A stretch of 64,000 nucleotides of DNA, from positions 192,001-256,000 of the forward strand of contig CAWHDZ010000007.1 of NCBI GenBank assembly GCA_963828255.1. The letters are read 5' to 3'. The stretch's first letter is position 1. Each line of letters starts with the position of its first letter. The DNA comes from an uncultured delta proteobacterium (lineage in GTDB: Bacteria; Myxococcota; Myxococcia; Myxococcales; Anaeromyxobacteraceae). The position numbers and the translations under genes are program-made. The notes under the pieces are model-generated. The model worked only from the letters and a program-made list of their open reading frames with translations, ran no database searches and had not been told where the DNA came from. Shown here one piece after another: positions 16,485 through 52,598 of this stretch.

Positions 16485-19400
16485 CTACCACCTCTCCGAT
16501 CCGTGGCAGCTGTTGGCGCACGTCCGGGTCTGACCGGTCGTGCAGCCCACGAGCGACGCGACGTTGTTGCACCTGTAGCCGGCCTGCGTTCCCAGGTCCG
16601 TCCTGGTGTTGTTGTGGAAGGGCGCGACCGTGGCCGCGCTGGTGAAGCCCGTCGGGTGGCACTTGTCGCAGCGCAGGTTCCTGTGGTCGCTGATGGTGTG
16701 CTTGCCCGTGGTGGGTGGGTCGCCGTGGCAGCCGGTGCAGCCTCCGCCGTCGGCCTTCCCGTTCACGTGGCCGCCGCCCTGCTTGATGGTGCCGTTGGCG
16801 TTCACCGACTGCGGGTGACACTGGAAGCAGCTCACCGCGGTGGGCGTCCCGGTGTAGGTGGGGTGGCCGGTGGGCGGCATGGCGTGGCAGGCCGTGCAGG
16901 CGAGGGGCGCCGTGCTCGACCAGACCGCTGTGGCGTTCGATCCCGACACCACGCCGAGCTTGAAGTTGCCGTGGCAGTAGGTGGCCGAGCAGCCGGCCGT
17001 CACCGGGTCGAACGTGGGAGCCGCACCCCCGGTCCTCGCCTGCGTCCCGAAGACCACCGGGGACGGTGGCGGAGCGGTGGCGTGGGCCGAGTCGGTCGGC
17101 ACCGGGTGGCATCCCGAGCAGGCGATGGGCGGCATGAGGTAGCTCGCCGTCGTGGGGTTCGCGTGGCCCGTGTGGGCTCCCACCGCGTAGGACGGGGCGC
17201 CGGCCGGAGCGACCGGAGGGGCGGCGGCGAGATTCAAGTCGGTGCCGGCGAGGTTGCCCTTGCGGGCCGCGTCGCCGTGGCAGGTGGTGCACCCCACCGC
17301 CGAGGTGTCGTTCAGCCCGTTCAGGTGGCCGCGGGCGGTCAGGTTCATGGTGCCGTTCGCGTTCACGGCCCTGGGGTGGCAGATGGCGCAGGAGGCTGCG
17401 GTGACGGGCGCCACGACCGCCACGTGGCCGGTCGGGGGCATGCCGTGGCAGGAGGTGCAGGTCATCGCGGCGGTGCTGGTCCAGGTGGGCGTGGCGTTCC
17501 CGCCGGTGACGGCGCCGAAGGCGAAGTTGCCGTGGCAGTAGGTTGCCGCGCACCCCAGGGTTCCCGCGGTGAAGGTGGGGGCCGCGCCGCCGGTCCGGGC
17601 CAGCGCCCCGAAGACCACCTTCTGCGCCGGGGGGCTGGTGGCGTGGGTCGAGTTCCCGGGTACCACGTGGCATTCCGAGCAGGAGATCGGTCCCATGAGC
17701 GCGGTGGCCGCGGTGGGGTTCAAGTGTCCCAGGTGTGCGCCGACGACGGTGGAGGACGCGTTGGGCGGCGCAACGGGGGGGGCCGAGGTCAAGTGGATGT
17801 CCACGCCGGCCAGGTTGCCCGTGCGGGTGGCGTCGCCGTGGCAACTCGTGCAGCCCATCGGAGAGGTGTCGGCAAGCCCGTTCAGGTGCCCCCTGTCCAC
17901 GAGGTTCAGCGAACCGTTGGCGTTGAAGGCCTTCGGGTGACAGCCCGCGCAGGAAGCGGAGGTGGCCGGCGCCGAGACCGGGACGTGATCCGGCGGCGGC
18001 ATCCCGTGGCAGGAGGTGCAGGTGAGCGCGGCCGTGCTGGTCCAGAGCGGCGTGGCGTTGTCCCCGGCGATGCCGTTGTAGGAGAAGTTGCCGTGGCAGT
18101 ACGACGCGGAGCAACCGGTCGAGCCCGAGCTCCAGAAGGGAACCGCGCCGCCGGTCCTCGAGAGCGCGCCGAAGGTCACCCTCTGTGCGGGTGGCCGGGT
18201 GGCGTGCCCCGCGTCGGCCGGGACCACGTGGCACTCGGCGCAGGCGATGGGGGACCTGACGGCGGTGGCGGTGGCCGGGTTCACGTGGCCGAGGTGCGCA
18301 CCCTCCGCGTAGGCGGGGGCTCCAGGCGGTGCGCTGGGCGGGGCAGACGCAAGGTGAAGGTCGGCCCCGGCCAGGTTGCCCTTCCGCGTGGAGTCGCCGT
18401 GGCAGTCGGTGCACCCCAGCGACACGGTGTCGGACCTGCCGTTCAGGTGTCCCCAGTCCACCCTGTTGATGGTCCCGTCGGCGTTCACCGCCGAGGGATG
18501 GCACCTCGCGCAGGAGGCGGCGTTGACCGGCGCGGCGACCGCCAGGTGGCCGGCGGGGGGCATGGCGTGGCAGGAGGTGCAGGAGAGCGCGGTGGTGCTG
18601 GTCCAGATCGCGATCGCCGCGGATCCGGTCACCCCGTTGAAGTTGAAGCTGCCGTGGCAGTAGGAGGTCGAGCACCCGGCCGAGGCCTCGTTCCAGGCCG
18701 GCCGCGCCCCTCCCGACCTGGCGAGCGGGCCGAAGGTGACGCCCTGCGCCGGCGGGTAGGTGGCGTGGACCGTGTCCACGGGCACCGGGTGACATTCGGC
18801 GCAACCGATGGGGCGCATCAACGCCGTCGCGGCCACCGGGTTCACGTGCCCGGCGTGGGCGCCGACGGCGAAGGCGGGCGCGCCGGGGGGCGCCGCCGGG
18901 GGAGCCGAGCCGAGGTTCACGTCGGTGCCCGGGAGGTTGCCCGTCCGCGTGTCGTCACCGTGGCACGAGGTGCAGCCCAGGGCGGTCACGTCGGCCTTGC
19001 CGTTCAGGTGGCCCCGGTCGGCCAGGTTGATCGACCCGTCGGCGTTGACCGCCGCGGGGTGGCAACTGGCGCAGGAGGCGGCGACGACCGGCGCGGCGAC
19101 GGCCAGGTGGCCCACGGGCGGCATCTCGTGGCAGGAGGTGCAGGTCATCGGGGTGGTGTCGGTCCAGACCGGCGTCGTGCTCGTCCCGGAGACCGCGTTG
19201 AAGCTGAAGTTCCCGTGGCAGTACGAGGCCGCGCAGCCCGCGCTGCCGGCCACGAAGGTGGGCGTGGCGCCGCCTGCGGTGGCGATGGGTCCGAAGACGA
19301 CCCGGGCGAGCGGCGGGGTCGAGGCGTGCGCGGAGTCGGCGGGCACGACGTGGCACTCGGCGCAGGCGATGGGCCCCATGATGGCCCTGAAGTCGACCGG

Positions 19401-21734
19401 GTTCACGTGCCGCTCGTGGGCGCCCACCGCGAAGGCGGGCGCATTGGGAGGAGCGACCGGAGGCGCCGAGATGAGGTTGGGGTCGGTGCCCGGGAGCAGC
19501 GGCTTCCGCATCTCGTCGCCGTGGCAGGCGGTGCACCCGAGAGCGGCCACGTCGGCCAGGCCGTTCAGGTGGGCGCCGCCGAGCAGGATGTCGCCGGCCG
19601 CGTCCACCGTCTGGGGATGGCATGCGCCGCAGGAGGCGGCCGTGATCGATCCGGCCAGCGGCGGGTGGCCGGTTGGCGGCATCCCGTGGCAACCGGTGCA
19701 GGCGAGCGGTGCGGTGCTGGTCCAGAGCGGCGTGGCGTTCGATCCGGAGACGCCGTTGTAGGTGAAGTTGCCGTGGCAGTACGAGGCCGCGCACCCGGCG
19801 GTCCCGGCGACGAAGGTCGGCGTGGCCCCGCCCGTCCTCGAGAGAAGGCCGAAGGTCACGCGCTGCGCAGGCGGGTTCCGCGCATGGGTCGCGTCGGTGG
19901 GAATGACGTGGCACTCGGCGCAGGCGATGGGGTTCATGACGGCCGACGCGCCCGCGGGGTTCACGTGCCCTTCGTGGGCGCCCGCGGAGTAGGCCGGAGC
20001 GCCGGGGGAGGAGACGGGAGGTGACGAGGTGAGGTCGATGTCCGTGCCCGGCAGGTTCGGGATGCGCCCCGCGTCGCCGTGGCAGCCGGTGCATCCCAGG
20101 CTGGCGACGTCGGCCTTGCCATTCATGTGGCCGCGCTCGACCAGGTTGACCGACCCGTCGGTGTTGAGTGCGGAGGGATGGCAGGTCGCGCACCCGGCGG
20201 AGCTGGCGGGCGCCGCGACGGCCACGTGGCCGGTCGGGGGCATCCCGTGGCAGGAGGTGCAGGTGAGGGGGTTCGGGTCGGTCCAGATGGGCGTGGCCAG
20301 CGCGCCCTTGACCCCGTTGAAGTCGAAGTTGCCGTGGCAGTACGAGGCGGCGCAGCCCGCGGTCCCGGCGGCGAACGTGGGGGCGGCGCCCCCGGTTCGC
20401 GAGAGGGCTCCGAAGACCACCTTCTGGGCAGGGGGCGCGGTGGCGTGCGCGAAGTCGCTGGGGACGACGTGGCACTCGGCGCAGTCCATGGGCCCCATGA
20501 ACGCCCCCGCCTGGTACGGATTCAGGTGGGCCAGGTGGGCCCCGGTGGAGTAGGCCGGTGCGCCGGCGCTGGCGGCCGGAGGGGAGGAGGCCAGGTTCAC
20601 GTCGGCGCCCGCCATGTTGCCGGTTCGCCCCTCGTCTCCGTGGCAGCTCGTGCAGCCGAGCGCCGCCACGTCGGCCTTGCCGTCCAGGTGGGCGCCGCCG
20701 GACACGATGGCGCCCGAGGCGTCCACCGACGTCGGGTGGCAGCCGCTGCAGGAGACCGCGGAAGTCCCCTGGACCAGGGGATGTCCGGTGGGAGGCATGC
20801 CGTGGCAGGAGGCGCAGCCGATGGGGGCGGTGTCGGTCCAGATCGGCGTGACCGTCGAGCCGGACACCCCGTTGAAGGAGAAGTTTCCGTGGCAGTAGGT
20901 GGCGGCACAGCCGGCGGTCCCGGCCACCCAGGTCGGCGACGCGGCGCCGGTGGAGGCGAGGGTCCCGAAGACCACCGTCCGGGCCGGAGGCGCCATGGCG
21001 TGGACGTCGTCGGTCGGCACCTGGTGGCACTCGGCGCAGGCGAGAGGCGGCATCACCGCGCTTGCCGGCATGGGATTGACGTGGCCGAGGTGGGCGCCCA
21101 CCGAGGAGGGCGGGGCGCCAGGCGACGAGGCCGGTGGGGACGAGGCCAGGTAGATGTCGGTTCCGGGGACGTTGGGGATGCGGGACGCGTCGCCGTGGCA
21201 CTCCATGCAGCTGTTGGCCGCGATCTCCGCCATCCCGTTCAGGTGCGCGCCGCCGGACACGTTGATGCTGCCATCAGGCTTCACGGTCCCGGAGTGGCAG
21301 GCGTTGCAGCTCGCCGGAGTCGCGCCCGTCGCCATCGCTGGATGGCCTGTGGGCGGCATGGCGTGGCAGGAGTCGCAGGTCATGAGGGCCGAACCGGTCC
21401 ACCCGACCTTTGCGCCGGACCCCTGCACGCCCCGGAAGGTGAAGCTCCCGTGGCACATGACGTTGCTGCAGGTCTTGGCCACCGGGTCGAAGGTTGCGCC
21501 AGCCGCCATGACCATCGGGTTCTGGGAGAAGTCCACCGCGAAGCCCGTGGGGGCGTGGCAACCGGCGCAGGTGACTCCAGAGGAGAAGGCGCCGCCGCGG
21601 AGGTGGTTGGCGTGGAGGGCTCCTGCCGGCGCGACCACCGCGGGGGCGGAACTCGAGGTGGTTGCTCCACATCCGGCGATGAACGAAGCGATGCTCGAGA
21701 CGACCAGGAGGAGGTTCAGACGGGGGGCTCGCAT
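16485..21734 (-). CDS. Multiheme c-type cytochrome lipoprotein (CxxxxCH/CxxCH repeat), 1749 aa, about 47 heme motifs
   Basis: Lipobox IAGC; 4 N-terminal motifs, 8 five-heme modules and a 3-motif cap ending CANSCHGSERW. Confidence 0.92.
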   Translation of the reverse strand: MRAPRLNLLLVVSSIASFIAGCGATTSSSAPAVVAPAGALHANHLRGGAFSSGVTCAGCHAPTGFAVDFSQNPMVMAAGATFDPVAKTCSNVMCHGSFTFRGVQGSGAKVGWTGSALMTCDSCHAMPPTGHPAMATGATPASCNACHSGTVKPDGSINVSGGAHLNGMAEIAANSCMECHGDASRIPNVPGTDIYLASSPPASSPGAPPSSVGAHLGHVNPMPASAVMPPLACAECHQVPTDDVHAMAPPARTVVFGTLASTGAASPTWVAGTAGCAATYCHGNFSFNGVSGSTVTPIWTDTAPIGCASCHGMPPTGHPLVQGTSAVSCSGCHPTSVDASGAIVSGGAHLDGKADVAALGCTSCHGDEGRTGNMAGADVNLASSPPAASAGAPAYSTGAHLAHLNPYQAGAFMGPMDCAECHVVPSDFAHATAPPAQKVVFGALSRTGGAAPTFAAGTAGCAASYCHGNFDFNGVKGALATPIWTDPNPLTCTSCHGMPPTGHVAVAAPASSAGCATCHPSALNTDGSVNLVERGHMNGKADVASLGCTGCHGDAGRIPNLPGTDIDLTSSPPVSSPGAPAYSAGAHEGHVNPAGASAVMNPIACAECHVIPTDATHARNPPAQRVTFGLLSRTGGATPTFVAGTAGCAASYCHGNFTYNGVSGSNATPLWTSTAPLACTGCHGMPPTGHPPLAGSITAASCGACHPQTVDAAGDILLGGAHLNGLADVAALGCTACHGDEMRKPLLPGTDPNLISAPPVAPPNAPAFAVGAHERHVNPVDFRAIMGPIACAECHVVPADSAHASTPPLARVVFGPIATAGGATPTFVAGSAGCAASYCHGNFSFNAVSGTSTTPVWTDTTPMTCTSCHEMPPVGHLAVAAPVVAASCASCHPAAVNADGSINLADRGHLNGKADVTALGCTSCHGDDTRTGNLPGTDVNLGSAPPAAPPGAPAFAVGAHAGHVNPVAATALMRPIGCAECHPVPVDTVHATYPPAQGVTFGPLARSGGARPAWNEASAGCSTSYCHGSFNFNGVTGSAAIAIWTSTTALSCTSCHAMPPAGHLAVAAPVNAASCARCHPSAVNADGTINRVDWGHLNGRSDTVSLGCTDCHGDSTRKGNLAGADLHLASAPPSAPPGAPAYAEGAHLGHVNPATATAVRSPIACAECHVVPADAGHATRPPAQRVTFGALSRTGGAVPFWSSGSTGCSASYCHGNFSYNGIAGDNATPLWTSTAALTCTSCHGMPPPDHVPVSAPATSASCAGCHPKAFNANGSLNLVDRGHLNGLADTSPMGCTSCHGDATRTGNLAGVDIHLTSAPPVAPPNASSTVVGAHLGHLNPTAATALMGPISCSECHVVPGNSTHATSPPAQKVVFGALARTGGAAPTFTAGTLGCAATYCHGNFAFGAVTGGNATPTWTSTAAMTCTSCHGMPPTGHVAVVAPVTAASCAICHPRAVNANGTMNLTARGHLNGLNDTSAVGCTTCHGDAARKGNLAGTDLNLAAAPPVAPAGAPSYAVGAHTGHANPTTASYLMPPIACSGCHPVPTDSAHATAPPPSPVVFGTQARTGGAAPTFDPVTAGCSATYCHGNFKLGVVSGSNATAVWSSTAPLACTACHAMPPTGHPTYTGTPTAVSCFQCHPQSVNANGTIKQGGGHVNGKADGGGCTGCHGDPPTTGKHTISDHRNLRCDKCHPTGFTSAATVAPFHNNTRTDLGTQAGYRCNNVASLVGCTTGQTRTCANSCHGSERW

Positions 21735-21862: not shown

Positions 21863-24800
21863 CTACCACTTCTCCGCCTTGTGGTCCTTGCCGTGGCAGT
21901 TGACCGTGCAGTTGCCGAAGGTCGTGCCCGTCGGCGAGCACCCCTTGAGCCCGCAGCTGTAGCCAGCCTGGGTGCCCAGGTCCACGACGTCGTTCTGGTG
22001 GAAGGCCCCCACGGCGGTCGTGCTTGTGTAGCCGGTGGGGTGGCAGCCGTCGCAGCGTTCCTTCCGGTGCTCGCCGTGCTCACGCGTCGTGGGGGGGGAG
22101 CCGTGGCAGGCGGTGCAGCCGCCGCCGTCGGCCTTCCCGTTCACGTGGCCGCCGCCCTGCTTGATGCTCCCGTCCGAGTTCACCGACTGCGGGTGGCACT
22201 GGAAGCAGCTCGCCGCGGTGATGGCGCCGGCGTAGGTCGGGTGGCCCGTGGGCAGCATGCCGTGGCAGGAGCTGCAGGTGAGCGGCGTGGTGGTGGTCCA
22301 GATCGGGGTCGCGTTCGAGCCCTTCACCGCACCGAACGTGAAATTGCCGTGGCAGTAGGTGGCCGAGCAGCCCGCGGTGGTGGCGTTGAAGGTGGGCAGG
22401 GCGCCGCCGGTCCTCGAGAGGGCGCCGAAGACCACCACGGTGGCCGGGGGACTCGTGGCGTGGGCCACGTCGGCCGGGACGACGTGGCACTCGGCGCAGG
22501 CGATGGGGGCCATCATGTAGCTCGCCGCGGTGGGGTTCATGTGCCCCATGTGCGTGCCCACCGCGTAGGCCGGTGCGCCGGGCTGCGCCACGGGAGGCGC
22601 GGAGGTCAGGTTGGCGTCGGTGCCGGGGAGGTTGGGCTTCCGGTTCGCGTCGCCGTGGCAGCTGTTGCAGGCCATGTTGTTCACGTCGGGCTTGCCGTTG
22701 ATGTGCCCCTTGGCGGTGGCGTTGATGGAGCCGTTCGCATTCACCGCGTCGGGGTGGCAGACGGCGCAGGAGGCCGCGGTCGCCGAGGAGACGGCGAAGT
22801 GGCCGGTGGGCGGCATCCCGTGGCACGAGGTGCAGGTGAGGGGGGCGGTGTCGGTCCAGAGCGGCGTGGCCCTGGCCCCGACGACCCCGTTGAAGGTGAA
22901 GTTGCCGTGGCAGTAGGTGGCGGCGCATCCGGTGGTCGTGCTGGTCCAGGTGGGGATGGCGCCTCCGCTGCGCGCGATCGCGCCGAAGACCACCTTCTGG
23001 GCGGGCGGGGTCCTGGCGTGGGCCGAGTCCACCGGGACGACGTGGCACTCGGTGCAGGCGATGGGGGCCATCATGTAGGTGGCCGCCGTGGGGTTCATGT
23101 GCCCCTGGTGCGCCCCGACGGCGTATGGCTTGGCGTTCGGCGTCGCGGCGGGCGGCGCCGAGATGAGGTTCGTGTCGGTGCCGGCGAGGTTGCCCGTGCG
23201 GTTCGCGTCGCCGTGGCAGGCCGAGCAGCCGAGCGCGGAGGTGTCGGAGACGCCGTTCAGGTGCCCCCTGGCCACGAGGTTGATCGACCCGTTTGCGTTG
23301 ACCGCATTCGGGTGGCAGGGCGCGCAGGAGGCCGCCGTGACCGGGGAGGTGACCGGCATGTGCCCGGTGGGAGGCATGCCGTGGCAGGAGGTGCAGGTCA
23401 TGGGGGCGGCGTCGGTCCAGACCGGGGTGGCGCTGGAGCCGGTGATGCCGGCGAAGTTGAAGTTGCCGTGGCAGTAGGTGGCCGCGCAGCCGAGCGACCC
23501 GGCCACGTAGGTGGGGGCCGCGCCCCCCTTCCTTGCCAACGTTCCAAACACCACCGTCTGGGGCGACGGGTTCGAGGCGTGGCCGAAGTCGGAGGGGACC
23601 ACGTGGCACTCGGAGCAGGCCATCGGCGCCATGAGGGCCGAGGCCGCCGACGGGTTCAGATGGCCGAGGTGGGCGCCGACGGCGGTGGCGGGCGCGCCGG
23701 TGGTCGTCCTGGGCGGGGCCGACTTGAGGTTCATGTCGGTTCCGGCGAGCGCTCCGACGCGGGCGGCGTCGCCGTGGCAGTCCACGCAGCCGACGTCGGC
23801 GATGTCGGCGCGCCCGTTCATGTGGAAGCCGGCCAGGACGACGAGACCGGCGGCATCGACGGTCTGGGGGTGGCAGGCGCTGCAGGAGGCGGCGGACGTC
23901 CCGGTGACGGGGGGATGGCCGGCTGGGGGGCATGGCGTGGCACGAGGCGCAGGCGATGCGGGTGGTGTCGCTCCAGATCGGGGTCGCCGTCGAGCCGGTG
24001 ATGTTCGTCGCCGCCTGGCCGGCGACGAGCGGGGTCGTCCTGAACGAGAAGTTCCCGTGGCAGTAGGTGGCCGAGCAGCCGGCGGTGACGGGGTTGAACG
24101 TGGGACTGGCGCCGTTGGCGGTCGCCATGGCCCCGAAGACGACCTTCTGCGCAGGGGGGACCGTGGCGTGGAGCGCGTCGGTCGGCACCAGATGGCACTC
24201 GTTGCAGGCGGTCGGGTGGGCCGCGGCGATGGCCGGGTTCGGGTTCAGGTGGATGAGGTGCGCGCCGTCCGCGTAGGCGGGCGCGCCGGCCGGAGAGATG
24301 GGCGGGGCCGAGGTGAGGAAGGGGTCGACGTTCGCCATGCCGGGGAGGCGGGCCGGGTCGCCGTGGCAGGCCGAGCAGTCGCCGCCGGTCACCTCGGCAA
24401 GGCCGTTCATGTGGGCTCCGAAGGCGATGTTGATGGTGCCGTCGGCGTTCACGGTGTCGGCGTGGCATCCGGAGCAAGACGCGGCGTCCTGGCCGCCCAC
24501 CCTGGGGTGTCCGGTCGGCGGCATGGCGTGGCAGGACCCGCAGGTGAGCGGGGTGGTGTCGGGCCAGGCCGGGGCCGCGCGCGTGCCCGTCACTGTACCC
24601 ATGGTGAAATTGCCGTGGCAGGAGACGTTGCTGCAGGTCTTCGACGACGGGTCGAAGGTCGCGCCCGCCTGGTGGACCGACGGGTTCTGGGAGAAGTCGA
24701 CGACGAATCCGGTCGGTGCGTGGCAGCCCGCACAGGTGACGGAGGGGCCCATCGAGCCTGCCACCAGGTGGGTCTGGTGGTTCGTGCCCTGCGGCACGAC

Positions 24801-24899
24801 CCCCGACGCGGTCCCGTCCGTGCTGGCGCCCTGGCACCCGAGGACCACGGAGGAGAGGAGGACGACCGCCGAACCGGTACGGAAATGGAGCGCGCGCAT
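21863..24899 (-). CDS. Multiheme cytochrome lipoprotein, about 1011 aa and 27 heme motifs after correcting one extra base in the G6 run at 23925-23930
   Basis: Lipobox VLGC; removing one base restores CASCHAMPPAGHPPVTGTSAASCSACH and joins ORFs 22080..24899 and 21863..23821. Confidence 0.85.
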
Positions 24900-25085: not shown

Positions 25086-26942
25086 TCACTGACAGCTCGG
25101 GCTCGTGCCGGGGGTCCAGTACCGGGTTCCTCCGTGGCAGCCGGTTGCGGTTCCAGTGTAACCGTTGGGACCGGGGGCGGACGGATTCCAGTTGGAGAAA
25201 TCCGGGGCCCCGGGAGCCGGGGCCGTGTTCATGTCCGGAACGCCGTTCACGTGGAACGGGAGGGCGTCCGGGCCGACGGCTCCGAGGCTGTACCCGGCCG
25301 GGTGGCAGGTCCCGCAGGAGACCGCGTACCAGTTGGGAAGGGCGTGCATCTGGTGCGAACCGGTGGTGGGCGGATCGCCGTGGCAGGCGCCGCAGCGAGC
25401 CTGTGTCCCGTCCACCTTGGTCCATTCGGGCGCGGTCGTCGTTCCACCGGTGAGCGTCGCCCCGTGGCAGTAGTTCGCGCAGGTGGCGGCGGTCCGGTCG
25501 AAGGAGGCCTGGGCGCCGTTCGCCGTGGCCAGCGGGCCCCAGTCGAGCGTGGCGGGCGTCGTGAAGGCCGGCCCCACGTGGAGGAGGCTCGCGGGCGAGG
25601 GGACGACGTGACACTCCGTGCAGTCGATGGGCTCGGAGATGGCGCTCGCACCGGGGAGGAGGTGGGCCTGGTGGGCGCCCACGCCGACCTGCCGCGTGTC
25701 GGAGGAGCCGAACCGGTCCACCGGCGGAGCGGCCTTCACCAGGGCGTCCATGCCCGTTGGCACCACGCGGTTCGGGTCGCCGTGGCAGGCGGTGCAGTCG
25801 GCGCTGAGGAACGGGGCACGGACGTCCGGGAGACCGTTCACGTGGAGTGTCGGGTTCACCGTGGCCCGCGAGTAGCCCTGGTGGCAGAAGCCGCAGTCGG
25901 CGCCCGTCGCGATCGCGGGGTGCCAGGCGCTCGTGTCGATGGAGCCGCCGGGGAGGGCGTGGCAGGAGCCGCAGGTGATCTCCGAGGGGGGATTCCACGA
26001 CGGGGTCGTGAGTGTTCCGCCGCCGAGCGGCAGGCCCGGGCCGCCGCCGTGACAGTAGACGTTGCTGCAGGTGATGGAGGAGCCCCCGGGCGGAGGGAGC
26101 ACGAGAACGGGGACGGCGCCGTTCGCCGACGCGAGCCCCGAGAAGGTCACCGTGGCGCTGCTGGTTGCGGTCGGGCCGACGTGCGCCAGATCGGTGGGGA
26201 CGACGTGGCACGCCGAGCAGGCGATGGGCAGGGAGAGGGGGCCGGCCGCGGGGAGGGAAAGCGGATCCCCGGCGGGGAGCAGGTGGCGCTGATGCGCGCC
26301 GACTCCCCGCAGCGACGGGCTGGACGCGCCGTTCCGGTCCACCGGGGGCGCCGCCTTCACGATGTCCGGGGTGCCCGGGGGCAGCGCCCGGCTCGCGTCA
26401 CCGTGGCAGGCGGCGCAGTTGGTGAGCATGGTGGGATCGGTGAGATCCTGCAGGCCGTTCACGTGGACCTGCCGGTCCACCGTGGAGTTGGTGAAGCCGG
26501 GGTGGCAGAGGGCGCACTGCACGCCCGCGGCCACCACCGGGTGCCACGGGGTGGCCGTGCCGGCACCCGGGGAGGCGTGGCATCCCCCGCATCCCAGGAC
26601 CGAGGGCGGGTTCCAGATCGGGGCCGGGACCGTCCCTCCGCCGATCTGCAGGCCGGGGCCGCCCGAGTGGCAGTAGACGTTGGAGCAGGACAGCGAAGTG
26701 GAGTTGAACGCCCCGACTGCCCCGTTGGCCCGGGCCAGGTTCCCCTCCAGGGTGACGGCGAACTGCCCGTTGTGGCACTCGCCGCAGGAGATCACCTTGG
26801 CGATCGGCCCGGAGAGGTGGACCGTGTGGGCGCCGGTGGTGGGCTCGCCGCCGCTCCCGCTCTCGGACGCCTCGCGTGCGGAGCAGGATGTGAGGCCGAG
26901 ACCGGTGACGGCAAGAAGGACGGCGGTTCTGCCGTGGCGCAT
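25086..26942 (-). CDS. Multiheme cytochrome lipoprotein, 618 aa, about 14 heme motifs plus a terminal degenerate ATGCH
   Basis: Start MRHGRTAVLLAVTGLGLTSC (lipobox); CxxCH, Cx3CH and Cx4CH motifs. Confidence 0.88.
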   Translation of the reverse strand: MRHGRTAVLLAVTGLGLTSCSAREASESGSGGEPTTGAHTVHLSGPIAKVISCGECHNGQFAVTLEGNLARANGAVGAFNSTSLSCSNVYCHSGGPGLQIGGGTVPAPIWNPPSVLGCGGCHASPGAGTATPWHPVVAAGVQCALCHPGFTNSTVDRQVHVNGLQDLTDPTMLTNCAACHGDASRALPPGTPDIVKAAPPVDRNGASSPSLRGVGAHQRHLLPAGDPLSLPAAGPLSLPIACSACHVVPTDLAHVGPTATSSATVTFSGLASANGAVPVLVLPPPGGSSITCSNVYCHGGGPGLPLGGGTLTTPSWNPPSEITCGSCHALPGGSIDTSAWHPAIATGADCGFCHQGYSRATVNPTLHVNGLPDVRAPFLSADCTACHGDPNRVVPTGMDALVKAAPPVDRFGSSDTRQVGVGAHQAHLLPGASAISEPIDCTECHVVPSPASLLHVGPAFTTPATLDWGPLATANGAQASFDRTAATCANYCHGATLTGGTTTAPEWTKVDGTQARCGACHGDPPTTGSHQMHALPNWYAVSCGTCHPAGYSLGAVGPDALPFHVNGVPDMNTAPAPGAPDFSNWNPSAPGPNGYTGTATGCHGGTRYWTPGTSPSCQ

Positions 26943-39355: not shown

Positions 39356-39371
39356 TGCACGGGACAGGCCA
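39356..39371 (-). promoter_or_regulatory. Sigma54 (-24/-12)-type promoter
   Basis: TGGCCTGTCCCGTGCA (GG-N10-GC); identical copy at 52669-52684. Confidence 0.65.
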
Positions 39372-42500: not shown

Positions 42501-45500
42501 GTTGACGGTGCCGTCCACGTGGGTCGCGGCGACGACGGTGGTGGCCGTGTTGCCCGCGCCGTGGCAGGTCGCGCAGGTGGCGTTGGCAGGGTGGTGGCTC
42601 GCGGCGGTGAGCGCAGGCGGCGCGCCGTGGCAGGAGGTGCAGGAGAGCGTCGCGACCGTCTTCCAGGTGGGCGTGGCGATGGCGCCGGCGCCGCCGGCGA
42701 AGTTGCCGTGACAGTAGGTGTTGGAGCAGGTCCCACCCGCGCCGGCGTAGGTCGAGGTGACGCCGCCGGTGTTGGAGAGGTTGGCGAGCGTGACCGTTCC
42801 GGCCGTCGCGACGCCCGTCTTGTGGACCTGGACCGTCGGGACGACGTGGCAGGCGTTGCAGAGGACCGGGCGGGACCGCGTCCCGAGGACGTGCGACGCG
42901 TGCACGCCGACGCCGTTCGCAGTGGCGGGGGCCGTGAGGCCGTAGGTGTCGGGGGAACCAACGCCCCTGGGGGCCGCGCCGACGTTCGGGTCCTGCGTGC
43001 CGGTGGCGACGAGCGTGCCGCCGTGGCAGGTGACGCAGGTGAGGGTGGAGGTGTTGACGACGCCATTCACGTGCAGTCCGCCGGCGACGTTGACGACTCC
43101 GGCCGCGTTGACGGTTCCGCCGTGGCAACTCGCGCAGGTGGTGATCGCGGCGGCGTTGTGGTGGTTCGCAGTCGTGGGAGGCGACTTGTGGCAGCTGCCG
43201 CAATCGGCGGCGGCGCCGTTCCAGGTCCAACTCGTCACGCTGCCCCGCGTCGTCGTCGCGTTGAGCGAGGAGCCGTGGCAGTAAGTCGCGCACGTCGTCT
43301 GCGTCGTCGTCCCGTTCCCCTGGACGAAGGTGGGAGCGAACGCGCCCAGGTTGGCGCCGGTGGCGGTGGCGAATGTCACGTTCACGACGTTGTTGGAGTG
43401 GGCGTTGCTCGTGTTGTTCGGGTGGCACTCGGTACAGGCCACCGGCTTGTAGACCGCGCCCGCCGCTGCCGGGTTCACGTGGCCGAGGTGCGTGCCGACC
43501 GCGACGCCCGTCGCGGCGCCCGCCGTGTCGACCGGAGGTGCCGCCACCTGGTTCACGTCGGCGCCGGCGACGCTGACGCGACCGCTGGTGCCGTGGCACG
43601 AGGTGCAGGACATGTTGGAGAGGTCGACAGCGCCATCGACGTGACCCGCCGCGCTGATGATGGACTGGGTGGCATTGCTGTAGTTGCCGTGGCAGTTGCC
43701 GCAGGTGGCGAGCGTGGAGCCGGCCGGGTGGGTGCCGCCCGGAGGCGTGCCGTGGCAGGAGGTGCAGGTCGTCGCCGCGGCGGTCCAGGTGATGGCGCCG
43801 GCGCCGACACCGTTCGTGAAGTTGCCGTGGCAGTAAGTGTTGGAGCAGGTGCTGCCGGCGTAGGAGGGGGCCGGGAAGGTGGTCCCGGTGCCGGTCCGCG
43901 CCAGCGTCCCGAAGACGACGTTGGGCGCGCCGTTGGCGTGGAGCGGGGTGGCCGGGATGGCGGCGTTGTGGCACTCGCTGCAGGCGACCTGCTTGGAGAA
44001 GCTTGGGCCGCCGGCGGCGCCGGTGAAGAGGTGCTTCGCGTGGGCGCCGACCTTGGCGCCCGTCGAGAGGTTGGTCGCATCGACCGGAGGAGAGGACGAG
44101 AAGGCGACGGCATTGGCGTCGGCGCCGGTGCGGGCCGGATCGCCGTGGCAGGTGGTGCAGGTCTGGGTGGTGTATTCGATGACGCCGTTCACGTGAGTCG
44201 CCACGTTGACGGCGACACCGGTGTAGCCCGTGTGGCAGGAGCCGCAATCGGTGCGGTTCGGGTGGAAGCGCCCGGTCGACGTCGTCGACGGCGGCATCCC
44301 GTGGCAGGAGGCGCAGACGAGCGTGGCGGCCGCGGTCCAGGCCGGGGTCACGTTGGTCGCGCCTACGCCGCCGCCGAGGTTGCCGTGGCAGTAGGTGTTG
44401 GAGCAGGTGAGGGTGGTGGTGGAGTAGCTGGCCGTGGTGATGCCACCGGTCGTCGACAGGTTGGCGAGCCCAACCGTGCCGGTCGTCGCGACGCCGGTCT
44501 TGTGGACCTGGGCGGTGGGAACGACGTGGCAGGCGTTGCAGAGCACCGGACGGGAGCGGGTGCCGAGGACGTGCGAGGCGTGCACGCCGACGCCGCGGGC
44601 GGTGGTGATGACGGTGCCATAGGTGTCGGGGGAGCCTGCGCCCCTGGGTGCGGCGCCGACGTTCGGGTCCTGCGTGCCGGTGGCGACGAGCGTGCCGCCG
44701 TGGCAGGTGGTGCAGGTGAGCGTCGAGGTATTGACGGCGCCGTTCACGTGCAGGCCTCCGGCGACGTTGACGACTCCGGCCGCGTTGACGGTTCCGCCGT
44801 GGCAGCTCGCGCAGGTGGTGAGCGCCGCGGCGTTGTGGTGGTTGGCGGTGGTCGGAGGCGACTTGTGGCAGCTGCCGCAGTCGGCAGCCGCGCCGTTCCA
44901 GGTCCAGGAGGTCACGCTACCCCGCGTCGTCGTCGCGTTCAGCGAGGAGCCGTGGCAGTAGGTGGCGCAGGTGGTCTGGGTGGTGGTGCCGTTGCCCTGG
45001 ACGAGGGTGGGAGCGAACGCGCCCAGGTTCGCGCCGGTGGCGGTGGCGAACGTCACGTTGACGACGCTGTTCGAGTGGGCGCTGCTCGTGTTGTTCGGAT
45101 GGCACTCGGTACAGGTCACCGGCTTGTAGACCGCGCCCGCCGCTGCCGGGTTCACGTGGCCGAGGTGGGTTCCGACCGCGACGCCTGTCGATGCGCCCGC
45201 CGTGTCGATCGGGGGAGCGGCGGCCTGGTTCAGGTCCGCGCCGGCCACGCTCGCGCGAGCGGCGGTGCCGTGGCAGGAGGTGCAGGTGAGGTTGTCGACG
45301 TCGATGACGCCGTTCAGGTGGTTGGCGCCGACGGTCGTCGCCGTGTAGCCGGTGTGGCAGTTCGCGCAGGTAGCGCCGGCCGGGTGGGTCCCGCCGGGGG
45401 GCGTGCCGTGGCAGGTGCCGCAGTTCGCCGCGGCGACGCCGCCGAGCCAGGACGGGGCGAGAGTGGTCGCGCCGTTCGTGAAGTTGCCGTGGCAGTAGAC

Positions 45501-48500
45501 GTTGGAGCAGGTGCCCGCGCCGTTCGTCCCCGCGCCGGTGGTGCTGCCCGCGTAGGCGGCGGTGGTGATGCCGCCCGTCCTGGCGAGCGTTCCGAAGGCC
45601 ACGACGGCGCGAGCACCGCCGGTGCCGACGCCCGTCGCGTGGGCGACGTCGCCCGCGCCGGGAACCGTATGGCACTCGTTGCAGGCGAGCGGCGTGGAGC
45701 GCCAGCGCGTGCCGTTCAGGTGGGCCGCGTGTGCGCCGACCGCGGCGGCCGTCGCAGCGGTTGCGCCGGTGGTGTCGGCGGCGGTGGCGTTGAAGCCGGG
45801 CGCCGAGGCGCTCGACGTCGCGGCGACCGCGGTCTGGGCGAGATCGCCGTGGCAGAGGGTGCAGCCGGTCCGGCTCAGGTTGACGGTGCCGTCCACATGG
45901 GTGGCAGCGACCACGGTCGTCGCCGTGTTGCCCGCGCCGTGGCAGGTCGCGCAGGTGGCGTTGGCAGGGTGGTGGCTTGCGGCGGTGAGCGCAGGGGGCG
46001 CGCCGTGGCAAGAGGTGCAGGAGAGCGTGGCGGCCGCGGTCCAGGCCGGGGTCACGTTGGTCGCGCCTACGCCGCCGCCGAGGTTGCCGTGGCAGTAGGT
46101 GTTGGAGCAGGTGAGGGTGGTGGTGGAGTAGCTGGCCGTGGTGATGCCACCGGTCGTCGACAGGTTGGCGAGCCCAACCGTGCCGGTCGTCGCGACGCCG
46201 GTCTTGTGGACCTGGGCGGTGGGAACGACGTGGCAGGCGTTGCAGAGCACCGGACGGGAGCGGGTGCCGAGGACGTGCGAGGCGTGCACGCCGACGCCGC
46301 GGGCGGTGGTGAGGACGGTGCCATAGGTGTCGGGGGAGCCTGCGCCCCTGGGTGCGGCGCCGACGTTCGGGTCCTGCGTGCCGGTGGCGACGAGCGTGCC
46401 GCCGTGGCAGGTGGTGCAGGTGAGCGTCGAGGTATTGACGGCGCCGTTCACGTGCAGGCCTCCGGCGACGTTGACGACTCCGGCCGCGGTGACCGTGCCA
46501 CCGTGGCAGCTCGCGCAGGTGGTGAGCGCGGCGGCGTTGTGGTGGTTCGCCGTCGTCGGGAGGCGACTTGTGGCAGCTGCCGCAGTCGGCGGCGACCGCG
46601 CTGTTCCAGGACCAGGAGGCGACGCTGCCGCGGGTGGTCGTCGCGTTGAGCGAGGAGCCGTGGCAGTAGGTGGCGCAGGTGGTCTGGGTGGTGGTGCCGT
46701 TGCCCTGGACGAGGGTGGCCGTGAAGGCCCCCAGGTTCGCGCCGGTGGCGGTGGCGAACGTCACGTTGACGACGCTGTTCGAGTGGGCGCTGCTCGTGTT
46801 GTTCGGATGGCACTCGGAGCAGGCGACCGGCTTGTAGACGGCGCCGGCGGCGGCAGGGTTCACGTGGCCGAGGTGGGTTCCGACGGCGACGCCTGTCGAT
46901 GCGCCCGCCGTGTCGATCGGGGGAGCGGCGGCCTGGTTCAGGTCCGCGCCGGCCACGCTCGCGCGAGCGGCGGTGCCGTGGCAGGAGGTGCAGGTCAGGT
47001 TGTCGACGTCGATGACGCCGTTCAGGTGGGCCGCGGTGTTGACGGTCGTCGCCGTGTAGCCGGTGTGGCAGTTCGCGCAGGTAGCGCCGGCCGGGTGGGT
47101 GCCGCCGGGGGGCGTGCCGTGGCAGGTGCCGCAGTTCGCGGCGGCGACGCCGCCGAGCCAGGACGGGGCGAGCGTGGTCGCGCCGTTCCGGAAGTTGCCG
47201 TGGCAGTAGACGTTGGAGCAGGTGCCCGCGCCGTTCGTCCCGGCGCCGGTGGTGCTGCCCGCGTAGGCGGCGGTGGTGATGCCGCCGGTCCTGGCGAGCG
47301 TTCCGAAGGCCACGACGGATGCGAGCACCGCCGGTGCCGACGCCCGTCGCGTGGGCGACGTCGCCCGCGCCGGGAACCGTGTGGCACTCGTTGCAGGCGA
47401 GCGGCGTGGAGCGCCAGCGCGTGCCGACGAGGTGGGCCGCGTGAGCGCCGACCGCGGCGGCCGTCGCAGCGGTCGCGCCGGTGGTGTCGGCGGCGGTGGC
47501 GTTGAACCCAGGAGCCGAGGCGTTCGAGGTCGCGGCGACGGCGGTCTGGGCGAGGTCGCCGTGGCAGAGCGTGCAGCCGGAGCGGCTCAGGTTCACCGTG
47601 CCGTCCACGTGGGTCGCAGCGACCACGGTGGTGGCGGTGTTGCCGGCGCCGTGGCAGGTGGCGCAGGTGGCGTTGGCAGGGTGGTGGCTTGCGGCGGTGA
47701 GCGCGGGAGGCGCCCCGTGGCAGGCGGTGCAGGAGAGCGTGGCGACCGTCTTCCAGGTGGGCGTGGCGATGGCGCCGGCGCCGCCGGCGAAGTTGCCATG
47801 GCAATAGGTGTTCGAGCAGGTCCCGCCCGCACCCGCGTAGGTCGAGGTGACGCCGCCGGTGTTGGAGAGGTTGGCGAGCGCGACCGCTCCGGCCGTCGCG
47901 ACGCCCGTCTTGTGGACCTGGACCGTGGGAACGACGTGGCAGGCGTTGCAGAGCACCGGACGGGAGCGGGTGCCGAGGACGTGCGCCGCGTGGACGCCGA
48001 CGCCGTTCGCAGTGGCCGGCGCGGTGAGGCCGTAGGTGTCGGGGGAGCCAACGCCCCTGGGGGCGGCGCCGACGTTCGGGTCCTGGGCTCCGGTGGCGAC
48101 GAGCGCGCCTCCGTGGCAGGTGGTGCAGGTGAGGGTCGAGGTATTGACGGCGCCGTTCACGTGCAGGCCGCCGGCGACGTTGACGACTCCGGCCGCGTTG
48201 ACGGTTCCGCCGTGGCAGCTCGCGCAGGTGGTGATCGCGGCGGCGTTGTGGTGGTTCGCCGTCGTCGGAGGCGACTTGTGGCAGCTGCCGCAGTCGGCGG
48301 CGACCGCGCTGTTCCAGGACCAGGAGGCGACGCTGCCGCGGGTGGTCGTCGCGTTCAGCGAGGAGCCGTGGCAGTAGGTGGCGCAGGTGGTCTGGGTGGT
48401 GGTGCCGTTGCCCTGGACGAGGGTGGCCGTGAAGGCCCCCAGGTTCGCGCCGGTGGCGGTGGCGAACGTCACGTTGACGACGTTGTTCGAGTGGGCGTTG

Positions 48501-51500
48501 CTCGTGTTGTTCGGATGGCACTCGGAGCAGGCGACCGGCTTGTAGACGGCGCCGGCGGCGGCCGGGTTCACGTGGCCGAGGTGGGTTCCGACGGCGACGC
48601 CTGTCGATGCGCCAGCGGTGTCGATCGGGGGAGCGGCGGCCTGGTTCAGGTCGGCACCGGCCACGCTCGCGCGAGCGGCGGTGCCGTGGCAGGAGGTGCA
48701 GGTGAGGTTGTCGACGTCGATGACGCCGTTCAGGTGGGCCGCGGTGTTGACCGTCGTCGCCGTGTAGCCGGTGTGGCAGTTCGCGCAGGTAGCGCCGGCC
48801 GGGTGGGTGCCGCCGGGGGGCGTGCCGTGGCAGGTGCCGCAGTTCGCGGCGGCGACGCCGCCGAGCCAGGACGGGGCGAGCGTGGTCGCGCCGTTCCGGA
48901 AGTTGCCGTGGCAGTAGACGTTGGAGCAGGTGCCGGCGCCGTTGTCCCGGCGCCGGTGGTGCTGCCCGCGTAGGCGGCGGTGGTGATGCCGCCGGTCCGG
49001 GCGAGCGTGCCGAAGGCGATGATGGCGCGCGCACCGCCGGTGCCGACGCCCGTCGCGTGGGCGACGTCGCCCGCGCCGGGAACCGTGTGGCACTCGTTGC
49101 AGGCGAGCGGCGTGGAGCGCCAGCGCGTGCCGTCAGGTGGGCCGCGTGTGCGCCGACCGCGGCGGCCGTCGCAGCGGTTGCGCCGGTGGTGTCGGCGGCG
49201 GTGGCGTTGAAGCCGGGCGCCGAGGCGTTCGACGTCGCGGCGACGGCGGTCTGGGCGAGATCGCCGTGGCAGAGGGTGCAGCCGGAGCGGCTCAGGTTGA
49301 CGGTGCCGTCCACATGGGTCGCGGCGACCACGGTCGTCGCCGTGTTGCCCGCGCCGTGGCAGGTCGCGCAGGTGGCGTTGGCTGGGTGGTGCGACGCCGC
49401 GTTCAGGGCAGGGGGCGCGCCGTGGCAAGAGGTGCAGGAGAGCGTGGCGGCCGCGGTCCAGGCCGGGGTCACGTTGGTCGCGCCTACGCCGCCGCCGAGG
49501 TTGCCGTGGCAGTAGGTGTTGGAGCAGGTGAGGGTGGTGGTGGAGTAGCTGGCCGTGGTGATGCCACCGGTCGTCGACAGGTTGGCGAGCCCAACCGTGC
49601 CGGTCGTCGCGACGCCGGTCTTGTGGACCTGGGCGGTGGGAACGACGTGGCAGGCGTTGCAGAGCACCGGACGGGAGCGGGTGCCGAGGACGTGAGCCGC
49701 GTGGACGCCGACGCCGCGGGCGGTGGTGAGGACGGTGCCGTAGGTGTCGGGGGAGCCTGCGCCCCTGGGCGCGGCGCCGACGTTCGGGTCCTGCGTGCCG
49801 GTGGCGACGAGCGTGCCGCCGTGGCAGGTGACGCAGGTGAGCGTCGAGGTATCGACGGCGCCGTTCACGTGCAGGCCGCCGGCGACGTTGACCACTCCGG
49901 CCGCGTTGACGGTTCCGCCGTGGCAGCTCGCGCAGGTGGTGAGCGCGGCGGCGTTGTGGTGGTTGGCGGTGGTCGGAGGCGACTTGTGGCAACTGCCGCA
50001 GTCGGCGGCGACCAGGCTGTTCCAGGACCAGGAGGCGACGCTGCCGCGGGTGGTCGTCGCGTTCAGCGAGGAGCCGTGGCAGTAGGTGGCGCAGGTGGTC
50101 TGGGTGGTGGTGCCGTTGCCCTGGACGAGGGTGGCCGTGAAGGCCCCCAGGTTCGCGCCGGTGGCCGTGGCGAAGGTGACGTTCACCGTGCTGTTCGAGT
50201 GGCTGATGTTGCCGGCGTTGTTGGTGTGGCACTCGGTGCAGGCGACCGGCTTGTAGACGGCGCCGGCGGCAGCAGGGTTCACGTGGCCGAGGTGGGTTCC
50301 GACGGCGACGCCCGTCGAGGCGCCCGCCGTGTCGATCGGGGGGGCGGCGGCCTGGTTCAGGTCTGCGCCGGCCACGCTCACGCGGCCGGTGGCGCCGTGG
50401 CACGACGTGCAGGTCATGTTGGCGACGTCGATAACCCCATTGATGTGGGTGGTCAGGTTGACCGTCGTCGCGGTGTAACCCGTGTGGCAACTCGCGCAGG
50501 CGGCGTTGGCCGGGTGCGTCCCGCCGGGGGGCGTGCCGTGGCAGGTGCCGCAGGCGTTCGCGGCCGGCGCCGTCCAGCTCGGGACGTAGGTGGTCGCGCC
50601 GTTCCGGAAGTTGCCGTGGCAGTAGCTCGAGGCGCAGCCCGAGCCGTTCCAGGCTGGGCTCACGTTGCCCGTCTTCGCGAGCGCGCCGAACACCACCTCG
50701 GCCACCCCGTTCGAGTGGGCGTTGCTCAGGACGACGGAATGGCACTCGCCGCAGGCCGTGCCGGAGGAGGTCGCGCTGGCCTGGAGGTGGCGCAGGTGAG
50801 CGCCGACTCCGCGGGCGGTGGTGGCCGTGTTGCCCTTGGCGTCCACCGGGGGCGCGGCGGCCAGCTGGGGGTTCAGCGTGCTGCCGGCGCGGGCCGCGTC
50901 GCCGTGGCAGGAGGTGCAGGAGAGGTTGACCTCGACCAGGCCGTTCACGTGGGTGGCCGGATCGACCGCCGTGCGCGTGGAGCCAGGGTGGCAGCTGCCG
51001 CAGCTGGCCGTGGCGGCGACGAACGGGTGGGGCGCCGGAGGCGGGCTGCCGTGGCAGCTTCCGCAGGTCACTTCCACGCTCCCGCCGGTCCAGAGCGGGC
51101 GGTTGTGGGTGGCTCCACCGAGGGTGGCGCCATGGCAATAGTTGGTGCAGGTGAGGCCGGTCGGGTCGAAGGCGGGGGCGGCGCCGCCGGTCGAGGCGAG
51201 AGGGCCCCAGGCGAGGTCGAGGGCGCCGCTGGGGTGCGTGCCCTGGCCAGGAGTGGCGTGGCATTCGGTGCAGGCCATGGCGATGCGCAGCGAGCCCGCG
51301 TTCAGGTGGGCCTGGTGGGCGCCGACGCCGGCGGAGGTGGTGGCGCTGCTGCCCGTGGTGTCCTTGGGCGGCGCGGCGGCGAGATCGGGATTGAGCGCGG
51401 TGGCGACCCGGGTCGCGTCGCCGTGGCAGGAGGAGCAGGAAATCGCGGCGACGTCCACGCTGCCGTTCACGTGGGTCGACGCGTTGACGGAGGTCGAGGT

Positions 51501-52598
51501 GTAGCCGGTGTGGCACGAGGCGCAGTCGGAGCTCTGGGTGTGGGGCGCGGAGGGCGGGACGCCGTGGCAGGTGCCGCAGCTCGAGGCGGCCGGGTTGGTC
51601 CAGGTCGGCGTGTAGCCGGCGTTGCCGCCGGGGAAGGCGCCGTGGCAGTAGACGTTGGAGCAGGTCGCGCCGCTCCAGGACGGCGTGGCTCCGCCGGTCC
51701 CGGCGACGGTCCCGAACGCGATCTCGACCGACCCGTTCGAGTGGGTGTTGCTGGTGGGGACGGCGTGGCACTCGGTGCAGGCGGTGGCGTTGCCGTCCTT
51801 GAGGTGGAGGGCGTGCGCGCCCACCGCGCGGGTGGTCGTGGCGGACTCGCCCTTCGAGCCCGTGGGCGGCGCGGCGGAGTTGCGGGGGTTGAGCGTCGTG
51901 TCGGCGCGGGCCGGATCGCCGTGGCAGGAGGTGCAGGTCATGTTCGCGACGTCCACCTTGCCGTCCACGTGGGTGGCGAGGTTCACCGTGGTCGCGGTGT
52001 AGCCGGTGTGGCAGGTTCCGCAGTTGGAGGCCACGCCCACGTCCGGGTGGGGAGCGGCGGGAGGCAGGCCATGGCAGGTGCCGCAGGAGGTTGCGCGGGC
52101 CTGGGTCCAGACGGGCGCATTGGTCGAGGAGCCCCCGGCGAAGCCGCCGTGGCAGTAGGACGCCGAGCAGGAGGAGCCGTTCCAGGCGGGGACCGCTCCG
52201 CCGGTGGTTGCGAGCGTTCCGAAAGCGAGGTCCACCATTCCGTTGGCGTGGGCAGCGGTCGTGGGGACGGTGTGGCACTCGGCGCAAGCGACCGCCGGGC
52301 CGATCGTTCCGCCCTGGAGGTGGAGCTGGTGGGCCCCCACGGCGCGGGCAGTCACGTCACTTTCGCCTCTGGTTCCTTTGGGGGGAGCCGACGGGAGCAT
52401 CGGGTTCGTGGAGGTCGCCACGCGGGTCGCGTCACCGTGGCAAAGGGTGCAAGCTTTGCTTCCGCCGCCGGCCCCTCCGTCCGTCCCCTTCGAGGCCATT
52501 GGGCGTGGGTCGGAGCAACCTGAAACGAAGGCTACGCAAACCCCTAGAATCAGGGCGCTAACGAAGCCATGGGTGCCACTTGACCGCAATCCCGACAT
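39534..52598 (-). CDS. Giant multiheme cytochrome lipoprotein, about 4354 aa and 110 heme motifs, interrupted by four single-base indels (about 49133, 48944, 47320, 46560) with net shift zero
   Basis: ATG after GGAGG; lipobox VSGC. Each indel is visible against intact copies of the same repeat (e.g. gccgt[t]cagg, gtt[c]gtccc). First and last segments are in the same frame; 20 modules plus a 10-motif C-terminal domain. Confidence 0.82.

What the first reader, a model, noticed from the sequence alone, without database searches (positions are those of the whole stretch)
16485..52598. 36-kb cluster of six modular cytochromes of graded length with embedded maturation genes
Seen: six co-oriented lipoprotein cytochromes of about 14, 18, 27, 47, 60 and 110 motifs, all built on the same module, with resB-ccsA-lipoprotein in the middle. 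No porin, quinol oxidase or catalytic subunit is present. Known: CxxxxCH/CxxCH repeat cytochromes occur in Geobacter and Anaeromyxobacter, with poorly defined function. Inference: a surface electron-transfer or electron-storage system whose reach is set by module number.
Basis: partly seen in the sequence, partly recalled or inferred. Interest (0 to 1): 0.85.

Follow-up and report, generated by a model that had tools for sequence, protein, structure and literature searches.

The report
110-haem single-chain cytochrome wire cluster
An uncultured Anaeromyxobacter-family bacterium carries six genes for chain-like iron proteins built from one five-haem repeat, the largest with 110 haem sites (broken here by what are very likely sequencing errors, and matched in a second species); they likely act as surface-anchored electron wires, and the haem-attachment genes among them likely serve the wires' tip domain rather than the repeats.

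Summary
The counts are right: six minus-strand TIGR01904 cytochromes with 110, 60, 18, 14, 27 and 47 motifs, with resB-ccsA-lipoprotein after the second. The 110- and 27-haem genes carry five one-base breaks; three are absent from independent contigs and none recurs in relatives, so they are very likely assembly errors. The repeat is a five-haem unit with five spare histidines (46 of 46). G1 is 20 modules plus a 10-haem cap, and another species has the same 20-module order. Lengths are not graded along the locus; orthologues differ in steps of five haems. The maturation cassette tracks the cap, not the CX4CH repeats: in 59 family genomes all 19 with the cap carry the lipoprotein (21 in all), while 52 carry the repeat. 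The cap ends in an atypical Cys-x-Cys-x4-His site. Porin-plus-cytochrome and quinol-side candidates lie elsewhere in the genome. Geobacter has comparable clusters (OmcG/H/N, GSU2887-2891), and this scan has met giant members and such cassettes on other DNA. Verdict: new variant of a known kind. Surface wiring is likely but untested; 'reach set by module number' is unproven.

The parts
39534..52598 (-). G1: 110-motif lipoprotein cytochrome, about 4353 aa read with X at four breaks; 20 five-haem modules (N1-N4, ABC repeats, D, Z) plus 10-haem cap
   Evidence: same architecture in G001
39534..41321 (-). G1 cap domain (595 aa, 10 motifs), identical in protein to the G2 cap, ending in C-x-C-x4-H
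52669..52684 (-). sigma-54-type -24/-12 box 86 nt before G1, identical in 4 of 4 relatives' orthologues
39356..39371 (-). same sigma-54-type box 87 nt before G2
31845..39284 (-). G2: intact 2479-aa, 60-motif cytochrome; 10 modules plus cap; shortened paralogue of G1 (3' 3.2 kb 98.6% identical)
31845..33632 (-). G2 cap domain; atypical terminal Cys/His site at 31848-31871
30551..31762 (-). short ResB/CcsB (403 aa), invariant His133
29729..30541 (-). CcsA (270 aa), WWD motif with DPIE in place of the housekeeping DPKE, four invariant His
29211..29729 (-). 172-aa lipoprotein, NTF2/ARC6-IMS-like; fused to ResB in homologues, likely a synthase subunit
27035..29041 (-). G3: 18-motif cytochrome (orthologues mostly 33)
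25086..26942 (-). G4: 14-motif cytochrome
21863..24899 (-). G5: 27-motif cytochrome, one break near 23923; 19 of 19 best-matching proteins have 27 motifs in one frame
16485..21734 (-). G6: intact 1749-aa, 47-motif cytochrome
15033..16139 (-). di-haem peroxidase/MauG-family lipoprotein, conserved downstream neighbour; membership of the system not shown

Best explanation
These are six TIGR01904-family cytochromes built from a five-haem repeat, which likely work as lipid-anchored single-chain electron wires on the cell surface, likely charged by a porin-cytochrome conduit encoded elsewhere and likely passing electrons to solid or cellular acceptors, with the embedded ResB-CcsA-lipoprotein likely maturing the tip domain of the two longest. 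Steps: (1) shown: N-terminal lipobox pattern, no other membrane helix, modules with 5 motifs and 5 spare His; inferred: all haems bis-His, no catalytic site in the repeats. (2) inferred: general CcsBA systems (two more in the genome) attach the repeat haems, CX4CH included. (3) shown by co-occurrence, function inferred: the dedicated synthase handles the cap, most likely its C-terminal Cys-x-Cys-x4-His site. (4) inferred: export to the outer face, possibly by the type II secretion system present in the genome. (5) inferred: electrons arrive from CbcL-like or NrfD-type quinol-side proteins through the porin plus 12-haem pair. (6) shown: length is tuned by gain and loss of whole modules while copies are homogenised within a genome; inferred: this sets reach and capacity. 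G1 and G2 are likely switched on separately by sigma-54.
For: His pattern 2,1,0,1,1 in 46 of 46 modules; invariant C/H columns over 110 two-module segments; confident two-module model, pLDDT 85, pTM 0.70. No hydrophobic stretch above 1.5 outside the signal peptides. G1 at about 490 kDa holo is hard to house in a periplasm (size; argument as in PMC11492766 section 11). Same 20-module order and 110 motifs in G001; intact 94- and 87-motif ORFs in G011 and G078. Cap in 19 of 59 genomes, lipoprotein in 21, overlap 19 of 19; repeat in 52 of 59; 13 repeat-bearing genomes lack a CcsA match at 1e-20. Caps on haem-free stalks still sit beside the cassette (L083-L086). Partners in trans: porin-like gene plus 12-haem cytochrome, cytochrome b-c fusion, NrfD cluster, GspD. 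Geobacter Gmet_0571 (34 haems, in the equivalent kind of cluster) is needed for optimal electron transfer to Methanosarcina (PMC10989804, passages).
Against: No localisation, expression control or structure of a long chain. The model covers two modules only and gave no coordinates to test linearity. omcN deletion had no effect on soluble or insoluble acceptors and Gmet_0571 is not needed for Fe(III) oxide. The porin calls rest on sequence appearance and gene pairing; neither Pfam nor NCBIfam recognised them. Co-occurrence among kin overstates independence, and absence is 'not found with this query'. Nine of 39 cap tails have only one cysteine, and two of three tails beside a third CcsA clade have no His after the second cysteine, so the terminal site may be a disulfide or metal site. 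Two of the five breaks (49133, 46560) were not among the rows shown by the read check.
Confidence: 0.55

Rival explanations
1. Electron store: the 276 haems act mainly as a capacitor that lets respiration continue between contacts with acceptors; chain length sets capacity, not reach.
For: No catalytic motif in the repeats; capacitor role proposed for the 40-haem Anaeromyxobacter protein (PMC2330069, passages), which is in this family (P0118, 40 motifs, 42% to G1); weak single-gene phenotypes in Geobacter.
Against: A store does not need a conserved module order, a distinct tip domain with its own synthase, or six anchored versions; the cap also occurs on haem-free stalks, which suggests it must be held at a distance.
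Confidence: 0.2
2. The cap is an extracellular redox enzyme or sensor with an unusual cofactor, and the repeats are just its supply cable; the uncapped G3-G6 are relays.
For: Dedicated synthases elsewhere serve catalytic haems (NrfI for CXXCK, CcsA1 for CX15CH; PMC12285233, passages); the cap has 18 spare His for 10 motifs and two spare Cys; a BchE-like B12 radical SAM gene accompanies the cassette in several phyla.
Against: No similarity to any solved enzyme; cap model unusable; the radical SAM orthologue at 69% or more is present in only 14 of 19 cap genomes.
Confidence: 0.15
3. Structural, adhesive or regulatory role: the chains are surface fibres or assembly factors for other cytochromes rather than a respiratory route.
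For: OmcG and OmcH are reported as needed for OmcB production (PMC1950547, passages); 65-72% small and polar residues; repeat-number variation and gene conversion recall adhesins (inference).
Against: Every module keeps all ten Cys and ten His, a large iron cost for a scaffold.
Confidence: 0.07
4. G1 is a decaying or artefactual gene: real frameshifts or an assembler-inflated repeat.
For: Four breaks in 13 kb; module copies up to 97% identical; G006 is broken across contigs in these repeats.
Against: Ordinary genes of this assembly show 2 frameshifts in 14 genes (21,846 bases); independent contigs lack 3 of 5 breaks; breaks fall at different motifs in G000, G001 and G006; no stop codon in the read-through and no lost ligand; G001 has the same 20 modules.
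Confidence: 0.04

Closest known systems
CxxxxCH/CxxCH domain c-type cytochromes (NCBIfam TIGR01904, Pfam PF09698); Geobacter OmcG, OmcH, OmcA (GSU2884), OmcN, GSU2887
   Same: All six pass the family cut-off; clustered, many CX4CH motifs (homologue table in PMC9961858); predicted long single-chain wires (PMC11492766 section 11).
   Different: Strict five-haem period over 20 modules; 110 motifs against a maximum of 87 in 84 Desulfuromonadia genomes and a stated record of 113. Orthology to the named Omc proteins was not tested by sequence.
G. metallireducens Gmet_0571-0601 / G. sulfurreducens GSU2880-2891 clusters with ResB-ResC pairs
   Same: Co-oriented multihaem genes with embedded ResB/ResC pairs proposed to be dedicated to nearby cytochromes (PMC2700814, passage). 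A Geobacter locus here has radical SAM, capped cytochrome, resB, ccsA, lipoprotein (L050).
   Different: That paper leaves the purpose open; the link to the cap and its terminal site, and the lipoprotein as a synthase part, come from this work.
Anaeromyxobacter dehalogenans 40-haem cytochrome
   Same: Same family and host family; 33 CX2CH plus 7 longer motifs, 42% to G1 (PMC2330069).
   Different: Less than half the size; no cap reported; not shown to be orthologous to any of the six.
Motif-specific System II synthases NrfI and CcsA1 of Wolinella succinogenes
   Same: Extra synthase beside housekeeping ones, linked to a client with an unusual site (PMC12285233).
   Different: Split short ResB plus CcsA plus lipoprotein; client motif has no CH pair and is unproven as a haem site.
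OmcS, OmcE, OmcZ polymer nanowires and the GSU1996 dodecahaem
   Same: Works like them if the wire reading holds.
   Different: One long polypeptide, not a polymer; no sequence or fold match in the PDB.

Membership tests
TIGR01904 / PF09698 cytochromes | HMM score above curated cut-off | tested here: met
   71-278 bits against 27 for all eight pieces scanned
TIGR01904 / PF09698 cytochromes | repeated CX4CH followed by CXXCH | tested here: met
   40 CX4CH and 15 CX3CH among 276 motifs, period of five
TIGR01904 / PF09698 cytochromes | covalent haem on the long motifs; outer-surface location | not testable with these tools
   needs mass spectrometry and fractionation
Orthologue of a named Geobacter Omc protein | reciprocal sequence orthology | not tested
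   no named Geobacter sequence was returned among the 120 listed hits
System II synthase (CcsBA/ResBC) | WWD motif and conserved histidines in CcsA and ResB | tested here: met
   WGRYWGWD, invariant H46, H130, H225, H263 in 35 rows; H133 in 18 ResB rows; the canonical roles of these residues are recalled
System II synthase (CcsBA/ResBC) | housekeeping equivalog TIGR03144 cut-off | tested here: not met
   143.7 against 187.6 bits; separate from the genome's two other CcsA domains in the tree
Motif-specific haem lyase | required for haem at an atypical motif | tested here: inconclusive
   co-occurrence and matching clades only
Porin-cytochrome conduit (Pcc/Mtr) | porin gene in the cluster | tested here: not met
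   every coding stretch in 16485-52598 is assigned; candidates lie on C2, C3 and C27
Polymer nanowires OmcS/OmcE/OmcZ | shared fold | tested here: inconclusive
   no listed match for the repeat; cap model too poor to search
BchE (TIGR02026), unlinked partner at G000:C3:201207 | equivalog cut-off | tested here: not met
   385 against 481 bits for the 95%-identical G006 orthologue

The most novel reading that the evidence does not exclude
G1 is a roughly 140-nm single-polypeptide wire of 110 or 111 haems whose tip carries a new kind of cofactor site (Cys-x-Cys-x4-His), installed by a three-part synthase (ResB, CcsA, NTF2-like lipoprotein), perhaps with a haem modified by a BchE-like B12 radical SAM enzyme; cap types and CcsA clades are matched pairs that can be swapped onto stalks of any length.
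Probability: 0.3. Interest if true: 0.82.

Novelty: new variant of a known kind. Interest (0 to 1): 0.6.

Why it matters
If G1 is made, it is among the largest multihaem cytochromes on record (113 is the stated record, PMC11492766) and such genes are hidden in databases because repeats break short-read assemblies and indels split long-read ones. Anaeromyxobacter porin-cytochrome clusters lack an outer cytochrome (PMC4245776, passages), and this family is a candidate for that part. The cap-cassette link turns the question left open in 2009, what the extra ResB/ResC pairs are for, into a direct experiment on a 595-residue domain.

Tried and rejected
Programmed frameshifting: break sites differ between genomes. 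Cassette dedicated to CX4CH motifs: 13 of 52 repeat-bearing genomes have no CcsA match at 1e-20, including single- and two-contig assemblies. One graded operon: order and promoters disagree. c-di-GMP riboswitch as at Geobacter omcG/H: no Rfam match in the window. No tRNA; tandem-repeat finder saw nothing of module size (period limit 500). Solved relatives: none by sequence (only short motif matches) or fold (Foldseek 0 rows, VIA-align best Z 2.1); this does not show a new fold. Cap structure failed (pLDDT 37.6); Atlas gave generic doubled-CXXCH clusters with low recognition. No homologue of 4340-5000 aa found (weak evidence). Expression: contigs of two RNA libraries cover all bins at mostly 90-99% identity, but no silent control was laid, so this is not counted. 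Complex prediction of ResB, CcsA and lipoprotein was not available. Ten paper searches listed no description of this locus, a 110-haem bacterial cytochrome or the cap-cassette link; Nissen 2012, Aklujkar 2013, Kim 2006 and Leu 2020 were seen only as citations, and supplements (notably those of PMC11492766 and PMC2700814) were not opened and may bear on size records and orthology.

Full report
Host. The window is G000:C7:192001-256000 of a 4.3-Mb, 40-contig genome, 71% G+C in the window. Titled loci with the closest caps (74-82%) include Anaeromyxobacteraceae and Anaeromyxobacter records, so the family is inferred to be Anaeromyxobacteraceae.

Observation. Six cytochrome genes lie on the minus strand with 110, 60, 18, 14, 27 and 47 Cx2-4CH motifs in gene order; resB, ccsA and a lipoprotein gene follow the second. 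All 276 motifs are on one strand; shuffles give at most 6 per protein. The cluster is flanked by a divergent DUF1015 gene and a co-oriented di-haem peroxidase-family gene.

Breaks. Alignment to sister modules places two one-base deletions (49133, 48943) and two insertions (47320, 46560) in G1 and one insertion (about 23923) in G5. Ordinary genes show 2 frameshifts in 14. All 19 listed proteins whose best match is G5 have 27 motifs in one frame. Break sites differ between G000, G001 and G006. I read them as assembly errors.

Module. The unit is 166-207 aa with five motifs, the third being CX3-4CH, and spare histidines in the pattern 2,1,0,1,1 in 46 of 46 complete modules. Five haems and five distal His imply bis-His ligation (inference). 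A two-module model is confident (pLDDT 85, pTM 0.70, little regular structure) and has no PDB match. G1 is 20 modules plus a 10-motif cap; G2 is 10 plus the same cap. The G001 orthologue has 110 motifs and the same order N1-N4, ABC ABC ABC, AB D, ABC, Z, at 78-88% DNA identity, while many repeat copies within each genome are 92-99% alike: concerted evolution at conserved length. The contig-truncated G013 gene has one ABC triplet fewer; G012 has 8 modules and another cap type. G1/G2 modules and most G3/G5/G6 modules form separate lineages (100/99 for the latter). At 1.3 nm per haem, taken from a different 27-haem model of 350 A (PMC11492766 section 11), lengths would be 18-143 nm; this is an extrapolation.

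Synteny. The locus sits at the same place (DUF1015 and/or the peroxidase gene) in G001, G004, G006, G011, G012 and G013 with varying content: G3 has 33 motifs in G006, G011, G012; G6 is present in G006 but not G001 or G012; G011 has an intact 94-motif ORF. G6-like proteins have 32, 37, 47 or 52 motifs, some possibly partial. So length varies in module steps, but the six-step series is particular to this genome. G1, G2 and 4 of 4 relatives' giants share an identical sigma-54-type box 86-91 nt upstream; none of the other genes has one; rpoN is present (the consensus is recalled).

Cassette. The genome has two further CcsBA systems, so this one is extra. In G001, G002, G003, G006 and G013 its orthologue (CcsA 91-93%) lies elsewhere, beside a BchE-like B12 radical SAM gene, which G000 keeps at C3:201207. 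Among 59 family genomes at least 90% complete: repeat 52, cap 19, lipoprotein 21, cap and lipoprotein together 19, CcsA at 1e-40 27 including all 19. Close radical SAM orthologues occur in 14 of the 19 and in 6 genomes without a cap hit. Capped 14-haem proteins on haem-free stalks also adjoin the cassette, as do Geobacter and Nitrospirae loci; 14 of 28 cap loci show a cassette gene within the fetched DNA. Of 42 distinct cap-like ends, 39 replace the last canonical motif by a tail with spare Cys and His (28 with two Cys, 9 with one) and 3 keep a canonical motif. In four genomes with no such CcsA, 16 of 17 complete repeat cytochromes in the stretches fetched end within 17 residues of a canonical motif; three intact giants beside a third CcsA clade have 88-96-residue two-Cys tails (frameshifted and open ORFs left out). 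CcsA clades match tail types, and G011, with both cap types, has both clades; joint inheritance would also give this. Against: G060 has CxCH and CX5CH ends with only distant CcsA hits, and one-Cys tails are common. The lipoprotein has 1038 relatives at 50% clustering; 9 of the 16 listed ones over 240 aa carry ResB in front, which supports a role in the synthase. Dedicated synthases for odd motifs are known (PMC12285233, passages).

Partners in trans. A porin-like gene with a 12-haem cytochrome (C3, duplicated on C2) fits the two-gene Anaeromyxobacter pattern of PMC4245776 (passages); a 7-haem cytochrome b fusion, an NrfD-type cluster, GspD and a second cluster on C27 with a 42-haem, a 6-haem and a porin-like gene are present. 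The barrel assignment is by appearance.

Known context. PMC2700814 (one passage) describes ResB/ResC pairs inside a co-oriented Geobacter cytochrome cluster and leaves their purpose open. PMC11492766 (sections 5 and 11, passages) predicts wires for OmcA/G/H and gives 87 and 113 as size limits. PMC10989804 and bioRxiv 2022.05.22.492868 (passages) report partner-specific transfer defects, low-potential induction of GSU2887 and no phenotype for omcN. PMC2330069, PMC1950547, PMC9961858, PMC2825233, PMC7399161, PMC8691401 and PMC6199725 were seen as passages only.

Verdict. Real, and a member of a known but structurally uncharacterised family. New here are the 110-haem architecture repeated in two species and the evidence that the extra synthase follows the cap. 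Surface wire 0.55, capacitor 0.2, tip enzyme or sensor 0.15, structural 0.07, artefact 0.04. Interest 0.6.

Noticed in passing
window 15033-16139 (-): Di-haem peroxidase-family lipoprotein with Tyr aligned to the Met of bacterial peroxidases, as recalled for MauG-type enzymes; conserved next to the cluster in the genus.
   Followed up: partly
window 52600-52668 (-): Leader between the sigma-54 box and G1 holds a conserved inverted repeat (CCTACAC...GTGTAGG) partly kept in relatives; no Rfam match.
   Followed up: no
window 54315-62530: Mobile-element remnant: frame-broken tyrosine integrase, Replic_Relax gene, DUF1254/DUF1214 pair between 269-bp inverted repeats (57618-57886, 60235-60499).
   Followed up: no
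window 8961-12091 (+): Two genes that look like topoisomerase VI subunits B and A (recalled, not scanned), syntenic in the genus.
   Followed up: no
window 13530-14594 (+): DUF222-HNH gene, apparently frame-broken inside the HNH motif.
   Followed up: no
window 16226-16459 (+) and 52879-53160 (+): Small opposite-strand ORFs with paired cysteines at both ends of the cluster; the first recurs in G001 and G012.
   Followed up: no
G000:C27:168789-188940: Second cluster: about 50-motif TIGR01904 gene, trihaem, PPIase, 42-haem, NHL protein, 6-haem, 16-haem and porin-like gene, with frame breaks.
   Followed up: partly
   Followed up: partly
G000:C2:10941-18776 and C3:4310-12141: The porin plus 12-haem region appears twice with the same ORF sizes; duplication or binning redundancy (contamination 6.6%).
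   Followed up: no
L093-L102: A third CcsA clade travels with a second, distant radical SAM gene (22-25%) and giants ending in a TPGGxY-type tail.
   Followed up: partly
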